A DNA stretch of 64,000 nt from a virus: the IMG/VR virus record IMGVR_UViG_3300021401_000004, positions 1-64,000 of that record. One strand, given 5' to 3'. The stretch's first letter is position 1, and the number at the start of each line of letters is the position of its first letter. The notes below the pieces were generated by a model. That model saw only the letters and a list, made by a program, of their open reading frames with translations. It was not told where the DNA came from and did no database searches. Position numbers and translations under genes: made by a program. This document shows, piece after piece, positions 3,033 through 35,317 of this stretch.

Positions 3033-4303
3033 CCCGTTGTACGGAAAGAGGATTATGCCCGAACCAAACCCGAAAGACTATCCAATACTTACGCCCGCAG
3101 ACTGGTATCTGCTGGTAAACCGAGTCCGAGACCTGTGCGAGCAATCGGGATGGAAGAACGTGTCCGAGGCTTTGCAATACGTGGTTAGACAGAAGCAACT
3201 TGCCCGTAATCAATAGGTTAGACAGTTCATTTTCCGTATAAGATTGGACGCCCGAATGCAACATGAGCGATGTGAAGAATACACGATGTCAGGCTTTATG
3301 GTAATCGAGCGGGAAGCATACTGCGAGCGATGCCAGCGAACCACGGATCACCAAGGCGAGTTTGGGCCTTGCATTCGCTGCCTGCGCCGGAGGAATACGG
3401 TAAATGGGATAGATTGACGCCCGTAAACAACACAGAGGCAGAAGAAAGATTATCTATGTTCGTGCAGTGTGGATCATACGCAGACAGAGAGCACAGACGA
3501 ATGCGGCTAGCGGGCTTGCAGTTCGAGCAGGTTAAGGGCATGATCCTGGTTTGGCATCCGTATGCCCGCTGGGATGCGCGAGGCGTGCTCGGAAGGCGCA
3601 TAAACCGAAACGAACCCTTCTGTGAGCGATTGTACTAAAACTTGCCCGCGATATCAGGAAAAGCCAGAAGAAATACGGAAAATGGACAACAGGTCACCCG
3701 TAAATGAGTACATGACAGCGAAAGATAAGGAGATAATAACCAAATGGCTAGACGCGCAAGATGATCCCTTTGGATGCTTGCAGCGAGCTAGAGGCGTTTG
3801 CAATATCGAATACCTAGTTTGGTTCGTTCTGAGGCAAGGCCCAACACTTGCCCGCTAAAGACTGATTACCAAAGTAATACTGTATGGCACACAGTAACCA
3901 CGCTCGATTTCAATTTCCCACTTGACCCCATTAGCAGCCACGATCTCCCACCAGAAATTTCTGTTGAGTTTTCTACTCAACAACAAATTCCAACGAATCC
4001 GCTAACCCAATTAGAATGAAGCGAATGCAAGCCCGATGCGTCAGAGTACACCCCGAGATGCGCCTGGATCGGGGAGACAGTTCGGTTGTGTACCACTTTA
4101 GGGTCCCTTGGGTAAAAGGATTGTTATCTTGGAGATGCCACCGGGCGCTCTACCCCACCACCCCGGTCTGCGGCGAGCCTAGGCTTGGGTAGCAAGACAT
4201 TGATTCCGTTAGTCTAAGTCCCGTTTTCCCGTGGTTTCTTAAATGCGCTTATCTGGCGCTTAACGGTCAAAAAGGGTGTCTTAGCGGCGCAAGGGGGCGG
4301 GGC

Positions 4304-4332
4304 TTGACAAATTACTAAGGTTCCTGCATAAT
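4304..4332 (+). promoter_or_regulatory. sigma70-type promoter
   Basis: TTGACA-17-CATAAT; GTG at 4340 would be leaderless. Confidence 0.7.
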
Positions 4333-4339
4333 GATTCTC

Positions 4340-4717
4340 GTGGGCAGGAAAAAGTCCCTATCGGAGCGTCAGGCGGAGATGCGCCTTCGACCGCCTGGAA
4401 GGAACAAGCAGCATAGGCAGACTAAGACCCCGACCTACGTGTCGTGGTGGCATATGATTGCTAGGTGCCGCTCAAATACTTCGGACGGGTATAAGCATTA
4501 CGGGGCAAAGGGTGTCAAAATAGTTCCGAGATGGGGTGACTTTCGTAACTTCCTTGCCGACATGGGGGAGCGCCCGAGCGGTACAACCTTGGGGCGAATT
4601 CTAGACAGAGGGAACTACGGACCTCGGAACTGTTTCTGGATGACAAAGCCTGAACAGGGGCTTCATCAGAGGAACAACAATTCTTTACGAAGATGGAAAG
4701 CTGGGAGCAAGAACTAA
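4340..4717 (+). CDS. HNH-type homing endonuclease-like protein
   Basis: TPTYVSWWHMIARC...HYGAKGVK...FRNFLADMGERP..TTLGRI...GNYGPRNCFW; the usual DRID is altered to GRIL. Confidence 0.75.
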   Translation: MGRKKSLSERQAEMRLRPPGRNKQHRQTKTPTYVSWWHMIARCRSNTSDGYKHYGAKGVKIVPRWGDFRNFLADMGERPSGTTLGRILDRGNYGPRNCFWMTKPEQGLHQRNNNSLRRWKAGSKN

Positions 4718-4736
4718 TACGGAAAACGGACAAACG

Positions 4737-5483
4737 ATGACAGACAAGAAGCTGTACACGCCGCGACAGAGATTCGAGATTGCTTTGCGCTCTGCGAAGT
4801 TCACGCGCGGGGAGTTCCCGATTCCAATTGGATTGCCGACTGAAATCTACCCTCAGATCATGGCTATATTTGACTTAAATGTCCCTGAGCGAGTGTTGGC
4901 GGAGGCGCGGGAGGGCTCACTGCCCCAACGTTACGACTTGCACTATGGCGAGGCTTGCGACCAGACAGACGAAAACGGATGCTCTGCCGAGATGGAAGAG
5001 TCCGCAACGGGAGAGTGGGTAAAATTCTCTGACGTTGTAGCGGAGGGCTCACTACCGCCAGAAATGTCGCGCTGTCCTCACTGCAACAGCCCTGCCCGTC
5101 GAATCGAATGGTGCGAAGGCTACCGTTCGCCCCACGTCTGCCCGACCGACCATATCAGCCATCAGCGACCAGATTTATTCTGCAATCTGTGCGGTGGATT
5201 GTTGGTTGAGGTCGATGGCAGCGACGATACAGTTTGCGCTAATGCCAGAGCACATGGGGAGGGCTCACTGCGGCCACCCCTCCAGGCCGATACGCTATTC
5301 GGAATATTCTGCAATGGCCAGCCTGAGACAATTCCTTCGCAACCGGGACTCTGGTGGGGCGGTTGGCAGAGACTTGCGGACTGGCTGAATCAGGGCTCAC
5401 TGCGGACGCCCGAAAGTAGAGAATCGCTGCGAAAACGATTTGAGGATACAGCGGCTTCGCCCAGCGCGGAGCCAAAGGACTAA
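4737..5483 (+). CDS. Mosaic hypothetical protein with repeated (E/Q)GSL linkers
   Basis: 248-aa ORF with CxxC motifs and four AGGGCTCACT copies. Confidence 0.7.
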   Translation: MTDKKLYTPRQRFEIALRSAKFTRGEFPIPIGLPTEIYPQIMAIFDLNVPERVLAEAREGSLPQRYDLHYGEACDQTDENGCSAEMEESATGEWVKFSDVVAEGSLPPEMSRCPHCNSPARRIEWCEGYRSPHVCPTDHISHQRPDLFCNLCGGLLVEVDGSDDTVCANARAHGEGSLRPPLQADTLFGIFCNGQPETIPSQPGLWWGGWQRLADWLNQGSLRTPESRESLRKRFEDTAASPSAEPKD

Positions 5484-29751: not shown

Positions 29752-30165
29752 TTGATCCGGAGATACGAGGATCGCGATTTCGCAGATGTCGCTTGGTTAA
29801 ACCAAGTCTCTTATGCGAAGCCTTGCTCGGATGAAGAACTCCGAGAACGCCTGATGTTGAATCGGGCATGGGTCTACGAAGATAGCCCGATAGTTGTTGG
29901 AGCTTTGATAACTGACGAATATTTCGAGCGAGATTACATCTGGAGCGTCACCGTTGCCCGCAACTGGCAGAAGCGAGGAATCGCAACAGCTTTGATTGCA
30001 CAAGCAGAGAAGAACTTCGGAGAACTTCATTTACACACTGAGCCTTTCTCCGAGGGTGCCCGATTGTACACGAAGCTCGGCTGGAAGCCCGTAAAAACAG
30101 AGTTTGACTACTACGGGCCCGGAGCCGATGCTGTTCTGATGGTGAAAAGAAATGTGGACGTTTAA
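29752..30165 (+). CDS. GNAT (RimI-like) acetyltransferase
   Basis: V..WQKRGIATAL; ARLYTKLGW; YY..DAVLM. Confidence 0.85.
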   Translation: MIRRYEDRDFADVAWLNQVSYAKPCSDEELRERLMLNRAWVYEDSPIVVGALITDEYFERDYIWSVTVARNWQKRGIATALIAQAEKNFGELHLHTEPFSEGARLYTKLGWKPVKTEFDYYGPGADAVLMVKRNVDV

Positions 30166-30550
30166 CATCAAAGCCGGGAAAGTATTCCATAACGGAGAAT
30201 TCTTTTCTACGGGTTGGTCCGGGCATAATGTTCGGGGCGGAGTTCAAGGGCGCAACAATCCCGCGACTCAGGCTATTAAGGATATTGGATCATTGCCCGT
30301 GGGTAAGTATACAGCGGGCACGGCATACGATAGCCCGAAAACAGGGCCCGTGACGATCCCGTTGTCGCCCAAACCGGGAACAGAAATGTACGGGCGCGAC
30401 GGCATGAAGATTCACGGTTGGCAAATCGGAACGGACCCGAATGATCCGTATAATCCGTCGTCTGACGGGTGCATTCAGCAGGGACGCCCGTATCGGGAAG
30501 CGATCAATTCGTCGCCCGATAAAGATTGGGAAGTAGTTTCGGGCGAGTAG
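30152..30550 (+). CDS. Tlde1/DUF2778-like L,D-transpeptidase-fold protein
   Basis: GSLPVGKY, GRDGMKIHG, SDGCI. Confidence 0.7.
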   Translation: MWTFNIKAGKVFHNGEFFSTGWSGHNVRGGVQGRNNPATQAIKDIGSLPVGKYTAGTAYDSPKTGPVTIPLSPKPGTEMYGRDGMKIHGWQIGTDPNDPYNPSSDGCIQQGRPYREAINSSPDKDWEVVSGE

Positions 30551-31056
30551 AGATCACGATTTGTGATCTCAAGTTCATTTTCCGTATAAAACAAAGGAGG
30601 CGCACAATGACAACCTTTAAATAGGAGGTCAAAATGCGTACAGAAGAACAGAAGTTCGCGACCAAGCTCCGTAAGGCGGGGGAGCGGGCAAAACATCGCG
30701 AGAGAGTTTTCAAGAAACATCCGCCATCGGTTCGCTATGCGAAGTCGAAGTTCAAAAAAGGAACTAAGCGTCCTCGCAAGAATCGGAAGCCCGTAACTGT
30801 AAAGTTGGGCGTGCAATAAGAACGCAGTCCTCAAGCCTACTAACAGTGCTGAAATCGAGGTCTATTAAGTCGGGCGGTAGGGCAACTTATCGCCCGCAAA
30901 TTTTGAGTCGAAGGCCGGATTGCCCGAGACTCCCCAATTACGTGAGGGATTCACCTGGAGTTCTCTGACTCCAAGCCCGCAAGCCTATCGGATTATAGGT
31001 TGCCCGCGAGCGTAGTAGAGCAGCTTCGGCTGAACTTGACCTAAACAGGTGAAACT

Positions 31057-33686
31057 ATGGGCTATAGCCCGAGTTCTAATAACCAGTCAAACCTGCCTCA
31101 GTCCACGGTTCGGTACTACGACAAAAAGTTCCGTTAAATGGTTCTTGCGGAATAGGGTCGAAGCTCGTGTGCCAAGAAACAGGAGAACCTGAAGGCACAG
31201 ACGCCGTTCGTCGCGTGTTCCGAACGTTTGGACCTCCCGATGAAATCTGGTAACCAGTACAACTTGTATCAAACAGGTACCCTCATCGCGTAAGCGATGT
31301 TGAATAACGTGGCTATATCGGGGGATAACTCATTGAGTCAATCCCGAGGGAAGTCTAAGTGACCCCGTAGAGACTACACGCCGCGCCCCGGAAACGGGTG
31401 ATGATATAGTCCGCACTTACGGGCGACCGTAAGAGGTTGGCAGTTATACTTGCCCGCCGCAACAAAATGGATGTATGTTCCCCTCGCGGCCAACACCAGT
31501 CAGACGACTGAAGGAACTGTTGGCGCGGGCGTGAGCGTATCTGTACTGAATACCTCGGCGACAATCGGTGAGTTGATTTGCGGCTCACCATAAACTTGAC
31601 TATATCGGTGGACATCTGCTATAATGGCAGACAATACCGAGCCAAGACTAACCGTTTTACAAGCCTATTAAATAATCCAAAAGGATGGCTAGAATGTCAG
31701 ACAAATCAAAATATTCGTACCTCGCTGGAATTATTGATGGCGAGGGCTGTTTTTGCATCGGAGCTGGACGACGCCAGAAGTGGGGCGTCATCAACTACAA
31801 TCCGCAGATATTGGTTGGCAATACGGACCATAGATTGACTGCGTGGCTGAAGGAAAACTTCGGGGGCGTAACTTTTACGCAACGCCCGAATAACCCGAGA
31901 TGCAAAATTCCGTCTATTTGGCGGTTGTCGAAAAAGAAGGACATGGAACTTCTTATTTTGGCAATCATGCCTTATCTGATAATCAAAAAAGAGCGTGCAA
32001 TTGTCTTCCTAGAATTTCTACGGCTTCCGCCGACAATGAATCCCGAACGTCGGGAAGAGTTGTGGAAACAGTTGTCGATCTTGAATAAACGGGGAGTAGA
32101 CGTAGAGACTAATACGTCAAGCAGTTCGGAAAACGAACTGAAGATAGAGTCCGAACTTACTGGTGACAGTAAGAGTGGCCCTGTGGTGACACAGGAGACG
32201 GCGACGCCCGTAATGACTGCCTAAAAACAGCATTCCCAAAACACAGTTGACGCTGATTACGCTAACTTCTCCAGCCTCAGTCTGGCGACCGCAATCGACA
32301 ACACTGTCGAAAACGTCGCCCGAGAGATGGCCTACCGTCTCGGCGAGTCCCTGTCCGCTTTGGTTCGTGCAACTGCGGACGGCGCGAACTCCGTGGATTC
32401 TTCGGTCCTGACCAAACTGGCCGCGACCTCGACCACGAGCTTCACGACTCTCTCCTTGACCTACATCCGAAACGCCGTGCAGTCACTTGCTGGGCGTTCG
32501 GTTCGCCCGTTTGACGAAGCTTCCAAAAACTTTGCTGGTGTGATCCATTAGGTTGCGGGCAACCGCATAAGGGTGGATATAAAATTCTCTCTGATTGACT
32601 CGAACGCTGAGATGCCAACGAGGGGCAAGTCAATATAGTTCCATAATGGAAACATATTGACAGCCTGAACGACTAAGCGAGAGAACGTTCATGTCGCATG
32701 AACGATGCAATAGTCTGAACAGTACGGAAAATGAACGTACTGAAGTAAGCAGAAATGACTTGCTCGGGCAAATCGCCCGTAACAACTTGCCTTTTGCACT
32801 CGGCGATGTTTTGGCGGACAACTCGAACGATTCGCCAATCGATATCCTGAAGCGTACTCCGCAGGGTTACAGCCGCCTGGATGAAATCATCTCGACGGAC
32901 TTGACCGAAGTCATTGAAATCCCGACTTCCGGCGTAAGCTTCTTCCAGTCAAACTTGGTGACCACCAGCCCGAACTACAATCCGGGAACTGGCGCGGTTA
33001 CGGGCTTGACTGCTCTGCGTACGTATATCTTCGGGCGCGATGGCATTTTCTCCATCAACCTCGGAGCGCAGGGTGACACCGGATACGGTGACGGTGAGTG
33101 GCGGAATATCCGTTTTTCATAATGTTTAGCGGATACAAAATTTCTTCTAATTGACTCGAACCCTGGAATGGCAACGAGGCGCAAGTCCAGAAAACGGACA
33201 GCGTGAGAGACTAAACGAAGAAACGCCTTCGGGCGATGCAATAGTCCGGTCTTCACAGAACAACAAATGTGAAGAGGCAAGCAGAAATGACTTGCCCGTC
33301 GAAAGACGTAACACAGACGTGCAACATCGTGCAAAACGCCGAGCCTTCGGTTGCGGACCCCAGCGGTCTAATTCCGGGGTGGACCAGCTATCGTGTTCAC
33401 TTCACGACCAGCTTGGGTCCGGATACTACAATCCGTATGTCATGGTAAAGTCCTAATGCGGATTCAAAACTCAATCTTATTGACTTGAAACCTGAAATGG
33501 CAACAAGGCGGAACCCTTCGGGGACCGTGAGAGACTAAGCGATTGAGCGCCTTCGGGCGATGCGATAGTCCGAACATACGGAAAACGAACCGTATGAGGT
33601 TGGCAGAAATGACCAATCTCAACAGCTTGTAAGTTGTTGATAACAAGGCGATTAGGGAAATTGACGCGGCCAGCGCAATCAGCTAA
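31057..33686 (+). CDS. Major capsid protein (N4-gp56-like), join(31057-31134, 31183-31269, 31471-31573, 32250-32548, 32790-33113, 33320-33436, 33651-33686), 347 aa
   Basis: AGGTGA RBS. Exons total 1044 nt with no internal stop: YYDKKFR|ENLKAQTPF..GNQYNLY|MYVPLAANTSQTTEG..IGE(Y)|ADYANFSS..GVIH|PFALGD..WRNIR|CNIV..DPSGLIPGWTSY..TTIR|IREIDAASAIS. Follows portal and scaffold. Confidence 0.88.
31135..31182 (+). other. 48-nt core-less group-I-like mini-intron (I1)
   Basis: Follows U and ends in G; GCGGAA pairs with exon UUCCGU (U.G at the junction); GGUUCUU pairs with 3' exon GAGAACC; holds two in-frame stops. Confidence 0.7.
31270..31470 (+). mobile_element. Group I intron I2 (~201 nt)
   Basis: P7 GACUA 31372 / UAGUC 31407; AAUCCCGAGGGAAG; P9.0 CA:UG before the terminal G. 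The 5' boundary is less certain (4-bp P1). Confidence 0.85.
31574..32249 (+). mobile_element. Group I intron I3 (676 nt) carrying a LAGLIDADG ORF
   Basis: P1 GGUGAGU:GCUCACC; P3 CUUGAC:GUCAAG; GACUA 32107 / GAGUC 32147; terminal G. Confidence 0.92.
31685..32224 (+). CDS. Intron-encoded single-motif LAGLIDADG homing endonuclease
   Basis: YLAGIIDGEG; FGG; PYLIIKK. Confidence 0.92.
   Translation: MARMSDKSKYSYLAGIIDGEGCFCIGAGRRQKWGVINYNPQILVGNTDHRLTAWLKENFGGVTFTQRPNNPRCKIPSIWRLSKKKDMELLILAIMPYLIIKKERAIVFLEFLRLPPTMNPERREELWKQLSILNKRGVDVETNTSSSSENELKIESELTGDSKSGPVVTQETATPVMTA
32549..32789 (+). mobile_element. Group I intron I4 (241 nt)
   Basis: P1 AUCCAU:GUGGAU; P10 AAGG:CCUU; GACUA 32671 / UAGUC 32711; splicing restores IHP. 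Confidence 0.9.
33114..33319 (+). mobile_element. Group I intron I5 (206 nt)
   Basis: P1 UAUCCGU:GCGGAUA; GACUA 33209 / UAGUC 33242; P9.0 GUC:GAC. Confidence 0.9.
33437..33650 (+). mobile_element. Group I intron I6 (214 nt)
   Basis: P1 AAUCCGU:GCGGAUU; P10 UCCUAAU:AUUAGGG; GACUA 33533 / UAGUC 33566. Confidence 0.9.
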
Positions 33687-33694
33687 CAAGCTGC

Positions 33695-33723
33695 TTGACA
33701 AACCGCTTCGGTTTTGCTATACT
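33695..33723 (+). promoter_or_regulatory. sigma70-type promoter
   Basis: TTGACA-17-TATACT. Confidence 0.8.
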
Positions 33724-33811
33724 GATACTAGCTCCGTGAAATTCGGAGCGACAATTGGAAGGGTCGGGTGCCCAATCACTCGGCCCAACCAGTTCCCTAT
33801 TGGGAGGGAAT

Positions 33812-34525
33812 GTGGACAAAGGAAATATAGTAGGTCAGAGGTACGAGCGGCTCGAAGTCCTGATGCCCGCTTGGATAAACGAAAAACAAAATCAAGTTTG
33901 GTTGTGCGTCTGCGATTGCGGGCAAATTCGGTTTATCACCACTGCCGTTTGGAATGCCCAAAGTCGCAAAAGTTGCGGGTGTTTGCGTCGGGAAGTTTCT
34001 CGCGGGCAAACAACGGCCATGAATCTGGCACGGGCGGGCCAACCGCGATCCGCCAAAGGCAAGATAGCGTCTCAAGCAGCTTGCAAGAAAATGAACGCGG
34101 TGCGGCACTCTCACGCCCGCCACGTTCTGATTAAAGTAGACCCCGAGCGTTTGGTGGGCGAATGTGATGTCTGCGGGGCCGTTCCACTCAAGATAATGAA
34201 GCACCGCGTCGGCAATCAACGCGACCAATATCTATGTTGGGTGGGTTCTTTGCGGGTTCACAACGAATACGCGAATGCGAGAGTCCGTTATCCGAACCAC
34301 GCCTTGGAAATGTTTAACAAACAGGCCAACGCCTGCGCGGTTTGCGACGGGCAGATGATTAGGGGCGATGGTTTGGCAAATGACGGTATGGTTCTAGATC
34401 ACTGCCACACGACGGGCTATATACGCGGGTTTACGCATCAACGATGCAACAAAGGGCTTGCAATGTTTCTTGATCGTCCGGAAGTATTCCGCAAAGCCGC
34501 CGATTACTTGGAAAGAAATCGCTAG
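33812..34525 (+). CDS. Endonuclease VII-family (HNH-fold) homing endonuclease
   Basis: WLCVCDCG..SCGC N-terminus; CAVC..LDHCHTTGYIRGFTHQRCNKGL. Confidence 0.85.
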   Translation: MDKGNIVGQRYERLEVLMPAWINEKQNQVWLCVCDCGQIRFITTAVWNAQSRKSCGCLRREVSRGQTTAMNLARAGQPRSAKGKIASQAACKKMNAVRHSHARHVLIKVDPERLVGECDVCGAVPLKIMKHRVGNQRDQYLCWVGSLRVHNEYANARVRYPNHALEMFNKQANACAVCDGQMIRGDGLANDGMVLDHCHTTGYIRGFTHQRCNKGLAMFLDRPEVFRKAADYLERNR

Positions 34526-34999: not shown

Positions 35000-35317
35000 T
35001 GCTCAGTTGAAGTGCTGTTAAGACGTGCAAGACCGGGCTTCGAAGCCCGCAGGTCCACCAGATCGCCCGTTAAGTCGGTCGGAAAACTTGACTTCGGGTT
35101 TGGCTGCCAATATTTGCAAACTGGTAATGGGCGACGTGACGGGCCTGAAATGGATTCGATTGCGCGGACGAGATAGCATGGATGGGCACGGATGCTGTGG
35201 CCACGTTACGGACACAGAAACAACAACCGCTACGACTAAACCTCGGGCGTTTGCGGCAGCCGCTTAATAAACGGCCCGCACGGAGTCAGCCGGGAACTCT
35301 GGAAAATAATCCCGGCA
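35000..35317 (+). ncRNA. ssrA: Circularly permuted two-piece tmRNA (acceptor piece ~35000-35060, coding piece 35141-~35317)
   Basis: T-arm plus CAGGUCC-ACCA ending at 35060 precedes GGGCCUGAAAUGGAUUCGA at 35141; G3.U70 pair; tag ORF 35229-35267 ATTKPRAFAAAA followed by TAA TAA. Confidence 0.9.

What the first reader, a model, noticed from the sequence alone, without database searches (positions are those of the whole stretch)
31057..33686. Major capsid gene split into seven exons by six introns
No capsid ORF appears in the track. Removing six segments, each starting after U, ending in G and carrying its own guide sequence, gives a 347-aa N4-gp56-like capsid protein. About 60% of the locus is intron. 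Four introns are only 201-241 nt and fall into two sequence types (I2/I3 and I4/I5/I6). Phage group I introns are best known from DNA-metabolism genes, usually one to three per gene. Six in the most highly expressed structural gene would make splicing a gate on virion assembly.
Basis: partly seen in the sequence, partly recalled or inferred. Interest (0 to 1): 0.92.

Follow-up and report, generated by a model that had tools for sequence, protein, structure and literature searches.

The report
Phage capsid gene with six introns
The only major head (capsid) protein gene of a complete 93-kb soil phage is cut into seven pieces by five full self-splicing-type (group I) introns and one 48-base "mini-intron" that keeps only the splice-site guide and probably borrows the ribozyme of the intron 87 bases downstream.

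Summary
Removing six segments from 31057-33686 gives a 347-aa major head protein. It is 96% identical to intronless relatives, and all six junctions align to them without gaps. The 92,960-bp genome holds no second capsid gene.

Five inserts are real group I introns. I2 passes Rfam's gathering score. I2, I4, I5 and I6 fit a group I core model with strong covariation (93% of cells paired, 37 of 46 pairs compensatory). I3 carries a LAGLIDADG endonuclease gene. I4 is exactly absent from a 94-98% identical phage in the same metagenome.

I1 (48 nt) has no catalytic core. It has a 7-bp P1 with the U.G pair, an adjacent 7-bp P10 and a terminal G. A 582-nt full intron with the same guide sits at the same site in another phage.

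Across about 100 related loci I found 33 insertion points and many 32-98-nt mini-introns. In 25 of 25 distinct gene layouts a mini-intron has a full-size intron no more than 112 nt downstream.

The "N4 gp56-like" label is not supported. No RNA evidence could be obtained.

Earlier agents of this scan reported core-less mini-introns in capsid genes of at least 17 other genomes. I found no publication describing them in phages.

The parts
31057..31134 (+). Exon 1 of the major head protein gene (aa 1-26). ATG at 31057, with AGGTGA 6 nt upstream.
31135..31182 (+). I1: 48-nt core-less mini-intron with in-frame TAA and TAG. The guide at 31141-31153 pairs with both exons. P10 is GGUUCUU with GAGAACC (31183-31189). 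P1 is GCGGAAU with GUUCCGU (31128-31134), with U31134.G31147. It ends in G31182.
31183..31269 (+). Exon 2 (aa 27-55), 87 nt. It links the mini-intron to I2.
31270..31470 (+). I2: 201-nt group I intron with no ORF. It is the likely provider of the catalytic core for I1.
   Evidence: Rfam RF00028 51.4 bits, gathering score 50. Member of alignment A1. nhmmer E=1.1e-24.
31471..31573 (+). Exon 3 (aa 56 to the first base of codon 90)
31574..32249 (+). I3: 676-nt group I intron in phase 1, with a 7-bp P1. It carries a 179-aa LAGLIDADG endonuclease ORF at 31685-32224 that overlaps the 3' core. A near-consensus promoter-like site lies at 31596-31625.
   Evidence: Rfam 33.6 bits, E 6.5e-6. Pfam LAGLIDADG_1 23.8 bits, cut-off 23.1. 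Core aligned with relatives. Promoter scan.
32250..32548 (+). Exon 4 (rest of codon 90 to aa 189)
32549..32789 (+). I4: 241-nt group I intron with no ORF. P1 is 6 bp and P10 is 4 bp.
   Evidence: nhmmer E=6.8e-41. Covariation model. Exactly absent from L003, where 32548 and 32790 are contiguous.
32790..33113 (+). Exon 5 (aa 190-297)
33114..33319 (+). I5: 206-nt group I intron with no ORF. P1 is 7 bp.
   Evidence: (E=2e-38)
33320..33436 (+). Exon 6 (aa 298-336)
33437..33650 (+). I6: 214-nt group I intron with no ORF. P1 is 7 bp and P10 is 7 bp. Rfam does not detect it.
   Evidence: (E=1.1e-40)
33651..33686 (+). Exon 7 (aa 337-347 plus the TAA stop)
33755..34525 (+). Free-standing endonuclease VII/HNH-type gene just downstream of the capsid gene. 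It has its own near-consensus promoter-like site at 33695-33723. L003 has no match to this stretch. It is a likely mobile neighbour, not part of the gene.

Best explanation
The single major head protein gene of this phage is expressed only after RNA splicing of six group I-type intervening sequences. I2 to I6 are complete group I ribozymes and are expected to splice themselves. In that reaction, guanosine attacks after the U of the P1 U.G pair, and the exons are then ligated at the terminal G. I3 is also a mobile element that carries a LAGLIDADG homing endonuclease gene. I1 is a deletion derivative of an I4/I5/I6-type intron. It kept the internal guide (P1 plus P10) and the 3' terminal G but lost P3-P9. 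The guide holds the two exon ends side by side. This helix most likely docks into the catalytic core of the next intron downstream (I2, 87 nt away), which performs both transesterifications before or while it removes itself. Shown here: the exon-intron anatomy, the core structure of the five full introns, the guide of I1, and the rule that mini-introns sit just upstream of a full intron. Inferred: that any of this splices, and that I2's core acts on I1. The confidence of 0.75 is for the whole statement. On its own, 'six group I-type inserts removed by splicing' rates about 0.9, and 'I1 is served by I2's core' about 0.55.
For: Gene identity and uniqueness:
- The intronless homologue L008 (96% aa identity) matches PHROG 1357, major head protein, at 1.7e-16.
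- GenBank annotates the Tunturi_3 homologue as major head protein in the same gene order.
- There is one copy in a 92,960-bp record that CheckV rates 100% complete.

Exact excision:
- All junctions align gap-free to three intronless genes.
- I4 is precisely absent from L003.

Ribozyme cores:
- I2 scores 51.4 bits against a gathering score of 50.
- A group I model (P3, P4, P5, P6/6a, P7 pseudoknot, P8, P9, P9.1) was tested on 25 related short introns, including I2, I4, I5 and I6. It gives 93.1% of cells paired, against 69.6% in shuffles and 32-39% when partners are slid.
- 37 of 46 pairs show compensatory changes, and 0 of 500 shuffles reach the observed values.
- The P7 pair next to the bulge is an invariant G-C.

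I1 and other mini-introns:
- I1 has 14 contiguous guide pairs against 4.7 in shuffles, with 0 of 2000 shuffles reaching that.
- Across 18 mini-intron lineages the guide averages 12.6 bp, against 5.0 when exon contexts are swapped.
- Exon and guide change together at sites aa20 and aa314/318.
- L156 has a 582-nt full intron at the I1 site with the same guide.
- In 25 of 25 cases a mini-intron has a full intron no more than 112 nt downstream, against 4 of 25 upstream and 4 of 53 for full introns.
- Three further cases from the metagenome scan obey the same rule.
- Mini-introns have the longest P10: mean 6.5 bp, against 2.7 and 4.7 for full introns.
Against: - There is no RNA evidence.
- I3, I4 and I5 fall below Rfam's gathering score (33.6, 20.9 and 15.6 bits), and I6 gives no Rfam hit. 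Their assignment rests on my family alignment.
- I found no sequence complementarity between mini-intron tails and the downstream intron (z-scores near 0). Nothing sequence-specific ties I1 to I2.
- The proximity rule counts related genomes, so its P-values overstate independence.
- I2's own P1 is short (4 exon base pairs plus 1).
Confidence: 0.75

Rival explanations
1. I1 is spliced by group I chemistry, but by any free or tethered sibling core (I3-I6, or excised intron RNAs acting in trans), not specifically by I2.
For: A P1/P10 helix with a terminal G is a generic group I substrate. This is established from ribozyme work with substrates supplied in trans. No tail-to-I2 pairing was found. 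Four other cores lie on the same transcript. I1's 5' site UCCGU resembles those of I5 and I6.
Against: Mini-introns obey a strict polarity and distance rule. 25 of 25 have a full intron no more than 112 nt downstream, and only 4 of 25 have one upstream. A freely diffusing core does not explain this.
Confidence: 0.15
2. I1 is a minimal self-splicing ribozyme, as claimed for the 56-81-nt degenerate group I introns of fungal rDNA, or it is removed by a protein enzyme.
For: Harris and Rogers (PMC3160393) report in vitro splicing of a small rDNA intron that has only P1, P7 and P10.
Against: Related mini-introns are as short as 32-34 nt, which is a guide plus a 15-18-nt tail. I saw no conserved P7-like pairing. 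Self-sufficiency would not produce the downstream-neighbour rule.
Confidence: 0.06
3. I1 is not spliced. Ribosomes bypass it, as in the 50-nt gap of T4 gene 60.
For: The size is similar (48 nt). A TAA stop follows the last exon-1 codon directly. A hairpin holds the take-off codon.
Against: The take-off and landing codons do not match: CGU, against CAG before GAG. The homologous mini-intron in L005 has no stop straight after the junction. At site aa54, bypass fails in L020 and L075, while splicing restores QYEMFMYVPL in all copies. The U...G ends, a guide that pairs with both exons and exon-guide covariation are group I features.
Confidence: 0.03
4. The gene is dead. The inserts are junk in a defective or misassembled phage genome.
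For: No expression data exist.
Against: All seven exons are intact and 96% identical to intronless genes. The inserts have conserved, covarying ribozyme structure. The same I1-I3 stretch is 98% identical in an independent contig. The genome is rated complete and has no other capsid gene. Dozens of related contigs carry similar inserts.
Confidence: 0.02

Closest known systems
Multi-intron phage genes: Staphylococcus phage Twort orf142 (three group I introns, exon skipping; Landthaler and Shub 1999, as cited in PMC11878797), and Bastillevirinae polymerase and terminase genes with two or three introns (PMC11878797)
   Same: Several group I introns sit in one phage gene. Some carry homing endonuclease genes. 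Twort orf142 is also a late or structural gene.
   Different: This gene has five full introns plus a mini-intron, and 60% of the locus is intron. The gene family has 33 insertion points. The papers I read report at most three introns per phage gene.
Small degenerate group I introns of fungal nuclear SSU rDNA (Phialophora, Porpidia, Arthonia; 56-81 nt; Harris and Rogers 2011, PMC3160393)
   Same: Both are tiny group I-derived inserts that keep P1 and P10 but lack most of the core.
   Different: The fungal introns lie in rRNA, are said to keep a P7, and are said to self-splice. They have no neighbour rule. I1 lies in a phage protein-coding gene and relatives go down to 32 nt. No P7 is evident, and a full intron always lies no more than 112 nt downstream.
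Compact bacterial group I introns such as the roughly 205-nt Azoarcus tRNA-Ile intron (size from my own knowledge)
   Same: I2, I4, I5 and I6 (201-241 nt) are similarly minimal. They have no P2, and they have P3-P9 with the P7 pseudoknot.
   Different: They lie in a protein-coding phage gene and form their own sequence family. Rfam's model barely detects them (15.6-51.4 bits, and no hit for I6).
T4 gene 60 translational bypass
   Same: Both are a roughly 50-nt untranslated gap inside a coding sequence, with a stop codon at its start and a hairpin.
   Different: I1 has no matched take-off and landing codons. It has group I splice-site signatures instead.
Engineered trans-acting group I ribozymes and split (trans-spliced) organellar group I introns
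   Same: The catalytic core and the P1 substrate helix can be separate modules.
   Different: Those cases are laboratory constructs, or introns split into two halves that reassemble. Here a complete neighbouring intron would serve a second, core-less intron on the same transcript.

Membership tests
Group I intron (Rfam RF00028) | The 5' splice site follows a U that forms a U.G pair in P1 with an internal guide sequence. | tested here: met
   Met for all six. P1 is 7 bp (I1), 4+1 (I2), 7 (I3), 6 (I4), 7 (I5) and 7 (I6).
Group I intron (Rfam RF00028) | The intron ends in G (omega-G). | tested here: met
   All six end in G at placements fixed by the protein alignment.
Group I intron (Rfam RF00028) | A conserved catalytic core, P3-P9, with the P3/P7 pseudoknot and a G-binding pair in P7. 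| tested here: met
   I2, I4, I5 and I6: covariation model with 93.1% of cells paired, 37 of 46 pairs compensatory and 0 of 500 shuffles reaching it. I3: Rfam alignment plus an alignment with relatives that shows covarying P8, P9 and P9.1. This row applies to I2-I6 only.
Group I intron (Rfam RF00028) | A catalytic core is present in I1. | tested here: not met
   After the guide, the 48-nt I1 has only a 29-nt tail. There is no Rfam or nhmmer hit. I1 is therefore a group I-derived mini-intron, not a ribozyme.
Group I intron (Rfam RF00028) | The score reaches Rfam's gathering threshold of 50 bits. | tested here: inconclusive
   I2 scores 51.4 and passes. I3 scores 33.6, I4 20.9 and I5 15.6. I6 has no hit. 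The general model is weak for this compact family. A family HMM finds all five cores, at E from 1e-41 to 3.5e-6.
Group I intron (Rfam RF00028) | Self-splicing with guanosine and Mg. | not testable with these tools
   No RNA data were available.
Mobile intron (homing) | Presence or absence at an identical site in close relatives, and an intron-encoded homing endonuclease. | tested here: met
   I4 is absent from the 94-98% identical L003. L008, L010 and L011 are intronless. I3 encodes a LAGLIDADG_1 protein. I2, I4, I5 and I6 have no ORF.
T4 gene 60-type translational bypass (for I1) | Identical take-off and landing codons flank the gap. | tested here: not met
   The take-off codon is CGU. The codon before the resumed frame is CAG.
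Degenerate small group I introns (fungal rDNA type) | P1, P10 and a residual P7. | tested here: inconclusive
   P1 and P10 are clearly present. No conserved P7-like pairing was seen. AGUC-like words occur in some tails but are not consistent.
Phage major head protein (PHROG 1357) | A significant profile match and the expected position in the head module. | tested here: met
   1.7e-16 for the 96%-identical intronless L008 protein. The Tunturi_3 homologue is annotated as major head protein after terminase, portal and acetyltransferase. The fold itself is not confirmed, because the AF2 model has pLDDT 28.8.
N4 gp56-like capsid protein | Detectable similarity to N4-type capsid proteins. | tested here: not met
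   Pfam gave no hit. The PDB sequence search gave only a B2 capsid at E=0.099. tblastn against 50,697 phage records found Tunturi_3 and five uncultured phages, and no N4-like phage.

The most novel reading that the evidence does not exclude
I1 and its many relatives are 'satellite' introns. They are group I introns that have shed their ribozyme and survive because the complete intron 21-112 nt downstream on the same transcript splices them too. This would be a natural case of one ribozyme serving two introns. It would be a step from self-splicing to shared, trans-type catalysis, comparable to what is proposed for the origin of spliceosomal introns from group II introns. It occurs in a phage capsid gene family that is an exceptional intron hot spot, with 33 insertion points.
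Probability: 0.55. Interest if true: 0.9.

Novelty: new variant of a known kind. Interest (0 to 1): 0.82.

Why it matters
Phage group I introns are known mainly from DNA-metabolism genes, with one to three per gene. Here the most abundantly needed structural protein of a phage depends on six splicing events, and its gene family is invaded at 33 positions. That makes it a natural system for studying intron gain, loss and decay.

The core-less mini-introns matter most. If they are spliced by the neighbouring ribozyme, they show how a self-splicing intron can become dependent on catalysis supplied from outside itself.

There is also a practical point. Gene callers miss such genes: no capsid ORF is called here. 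Frame-breaking inserts of 30-50 nt can be misread as pseudogenes or as ribosome-hopping sites.

Tried and rejected
- **Structure of the capsid protein.** AlphaFold2 on 12 close homologues gave pLDDT 28.8, which is unusable. I did no fold search.
- **Mini-introns elsewhere in the genome.** A de novo scan for guide-bearing 30-110-nt inserts gave 122 hits on the + strand, against 130-147 in shuffled genomes. It is uninformative, and it missed I1 because exon 1 is short.
- **Pairing between mini-intron tails and the downstream intron.** Duplex energies were no better than for shuffled tails, except in one case. Rejected as a general feature.
- **Gene 60-type bypass for I1.** Rejected because the codons do not match and the model fails in homologous mini-introns.
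- **Inteins.** Rejected because the inserts carry stops and most shift the frame.
- **Rfam on nine related loci.** It found only some of the introns.
- **ARAGORN.** It found no tRNA or tmRNA, although Rfam finds a permuted tmRNA.
- **Literature.** Searches found no description of core-less mini-introns in phages.
Full report
**What is there**

The stretch 31057-33686 holds no long ORF. tblastn with the 343-aa major head protein of Tunturiibacter phage Tunturi_3 (PP885686.1, intronless) finds all of that protein in seven collinear pieces.

A protein-to-DNA aligner that I wrote, which uses no splice-site rule, places six inserts:
- I1 31135-31182 (48 nt)
- I2 31270-31470 (201 nt)
- I3 31574-32249 (676 nt, splitting a codon)
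- I4 32549-32789 (241 nt)
- I5 33114-33319 (206 nt)
- I6 33437-33650 (214 nt)

The joined exons are 1044 nt and encode 347 aa. The product is 96% identical to the uninterrupted genes of L008, L010 and L011. At the nucleotide level each junction aligns 24 to 24 with three intronless genes.

The window belongs to a 92,960-bp IMG/VR record that CheckV rates 100% complete. That record holds no other copy of the gene.

The protein family is PHROG 1357, major head protein (1.7e-16). I found no support for the label 'N4 gp56-like'. An AlphaFold model was too poor to use.

**The five full introns**

Rfam finds I2 above the gathering score (51.4 against 50). It finds I3 (33.6), I4 (20.9) and I5 (15.6) below it, and does not find I6.

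I therefore collected relatives. 80 IMG/VR loci and 80 metagenome loci encode this protein, and many are interrupted. I aligned 25 short introns (181-241 nt), including I2, I4, I5 and I6 (A1). RNAalifold predicted P3, P6, P8, P9 and P9.1.

I then wrote out a full group I core, adding P4, P5 and the P7 pseudoknot. On that model:
- 93.1% of cells pair, against 69.6% in shuffles and 32-39% when partners are slid.
- 37 of 46 pairs carry compensatory changes, and 0 of 500 shuffles reach the observed values.
- The P7 pair beside the bulge is an invariant G-C, and the flanking P7 pairs switch between G-C and A-U.

An HMM built from A1 finds exactly five places in the whole genome: I4, I6, I5, I2 and the I3 core.

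I3 holds a 179-aa LAGLIDADG_1 ORF. Its core aligns with 600-750-nt relatives in which P8, P9 and P9.1 covary.

L003 comes from the same metagenome and is 98% identical across E1-I1-E2-I2-E3-I3-E4. It lacks I4 exactly, with 32548 joined directly to 32790. This is the classic sign of a mobile intron.

All six inserts follow U, end in G and have a P1 with the U.G pair.

**I1**

At 48 nt, with in-frame TAA and TAG, I1 has no room for a core.

Positions 31141-31153 form one continuous guide. GCGGAAU pairs with the last seven bases of exon 1, including U31134.G31147. The adjacent GGUUCUU pairs with the first seven bases of exon 2. No shuffle out of 2000 reaches 14 contiguous pairs.

L005 has a 51-nt version with the same guide and a different tail. 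L156 has a 582-nt full intron of the I4/I5/I6 type, with a 128-aa ORF, at the same site and with the same guide. I1 is therefore a deletion derivative that kept both ends.

A gene 60-type bypass does not fit. CGU has no matching landing codon. At another site, splicing restores QYEMFMYVPL in every copy, whereas hopping fails in L020 and L075.

**Mini-introns as a class**

In the related loci I found 33 insertion points in this roughly 1040-nt gene. I also found mini-introns of 32-98 nt at a dozen of those points, often where other phages have a full intron.
- In 18 lineages the guide averages 12.6 contiguous pairs. Shuffled sequences give 4.7 and swapped exon contexts give 5.0.
- Exon and guide change together. 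At aa20, C-G changes to G-C and A-U changes to U-A. At aa314/318, C-G changes to U-A and A-U changes to C-G.
- Their P10 is the longest of all introns in the set, with a mean of 6.5 bp. This fits a 3' splice site that has no P9 scaffold to position it.
- In 25 distinct complete gene layouts, 25 of 25 mini-introns have a full intron no more than 112 nt downstream. Only 4 of 25 have one that close upstream, and only 4 of 53 full introns have such a downstream neighbour.
- Three new cases from the metagenome scan obey the same rule.

The counts come from related genomes, so the P-values are too optimistic. The polarity is nevertheless striking.

I found no pairing between mini-intron tails and the partner intron.

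**Mechanism**

I2-I6 most likely self-splice. For I1 the best reading is that its P1/P10 helix and terminal G dock into the core of I2, 87 nt downstream and still tethered to it on the same transcript.

The downstream polarity makes kinetic sense. An upstream core can excise itself and leave before the mini-intron has been transcribed. A downstream core folds after the mini-intron's helix already exists.

It also suggests an origin. When two introns lie close together, the upstream core becomes dispensable and is deleted.

None of this is shown at the RNA level.

**Comparison with what is known**

Phage genes with two or three group I introns are known (PMC11878797, which cites Twort orf142). 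Degenerate 56-81-nt group I introns are described in fungal rDNA (PMC3160393). In the literature library searched I found no description of core-less mini-introns in phages, or of a neighbour-dependent intron.

Earlier agents of this scan reached the same reading on other genomes. That is not independent evidence. I reached my own reading before that look-up.

Noticed in passing
window 35000-35267 (+): Rfam finds a circularly permuted (two-piece) tmRNA at 65.8 bits, against a gathering score of 47. L003 has one too, at 68.5 bits. ARAGORN reports nothing. A phage-borne permuted tmRNA is unusual.
   Followed up: partly
window, 51 copies genome-wide; inside introns at 32125, 32723, 33186 and 33577: The 13-mer TACRGAAAAYGRA occurs 51 times with at most one mismatch, against 0.67 expected. 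Most copies lie just upstream of start codons. It also sits in hairpin loops of I3, I4 (P9), I5 (P6a) and I6 (P9). Among 162 loci it occurs only in the closest clade (L003, L005, L009, L066), again partly in intron P9 loops. The link between this genome motif and the intron loops is unexplained.
   Followed up: partly
L009:4377-5000, L013:3219-3828 and 4378-5000, L054:4368-5000, L024:4017-4706, L028:3072-3845 and 3963-4706, L034:3940-4589, L055:2915-3903: A set of 600-990-nt group I-like introns in related capsid genes begin after U but end in A, not G (...AAUAAUA|, ...AAAGUA|). This holds at five different sites, and no alternative placement keeps the conserved protein. Their P7 looks the same as in relatives that end in G. 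A natural intron with a terminal A would be remarkable. Not explained.
   Followed up: partly
window 31596-31625 and 33695-33723: Two near-consensus sigma-70-like promoter sites (11 of 12 matches, with an extended TG). One lies inside I3, about 60 nt upstream of the LAGLIDADG ORF, and overlaps conserved core sequence. The other lies just after the capsid stop codon, upstream of the endonuclease VII/HNH gene.
   Followed up: no
L003 (IMGVR_UViG_3300050821_004371) against window 30899-33109: A second phage in the same metagenome shares I1-I3 at 98% identity. It lacks I4-I6 and instead has a 43-nt mini-intron plus 196- and 183-nt introns near the 3' end. The two capsid genes are therefore mosaics, with intron turnover inside one community.
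   Followed up: partly
junctions J1, J4, J5 and J6 in L008, L010 and Tunturi_3: Intronless alleles often carry C or A where the intron-bearing allele has the splice-site U (CGC for CGU, CAC for CAU, AAA for CGU). This would prevent P1 formation and perhaps block homing.
   Followed up: no
window 30152-30550 and 30550-31056: A Tlde1-domain (L,D-transpeptidase-like effector) ORF precedes the capsid gene. After it come a terminator-like hairpin and about 470 nt with no long ORF except a 61-aa very basic one (30634-30819).
   Followed up: no
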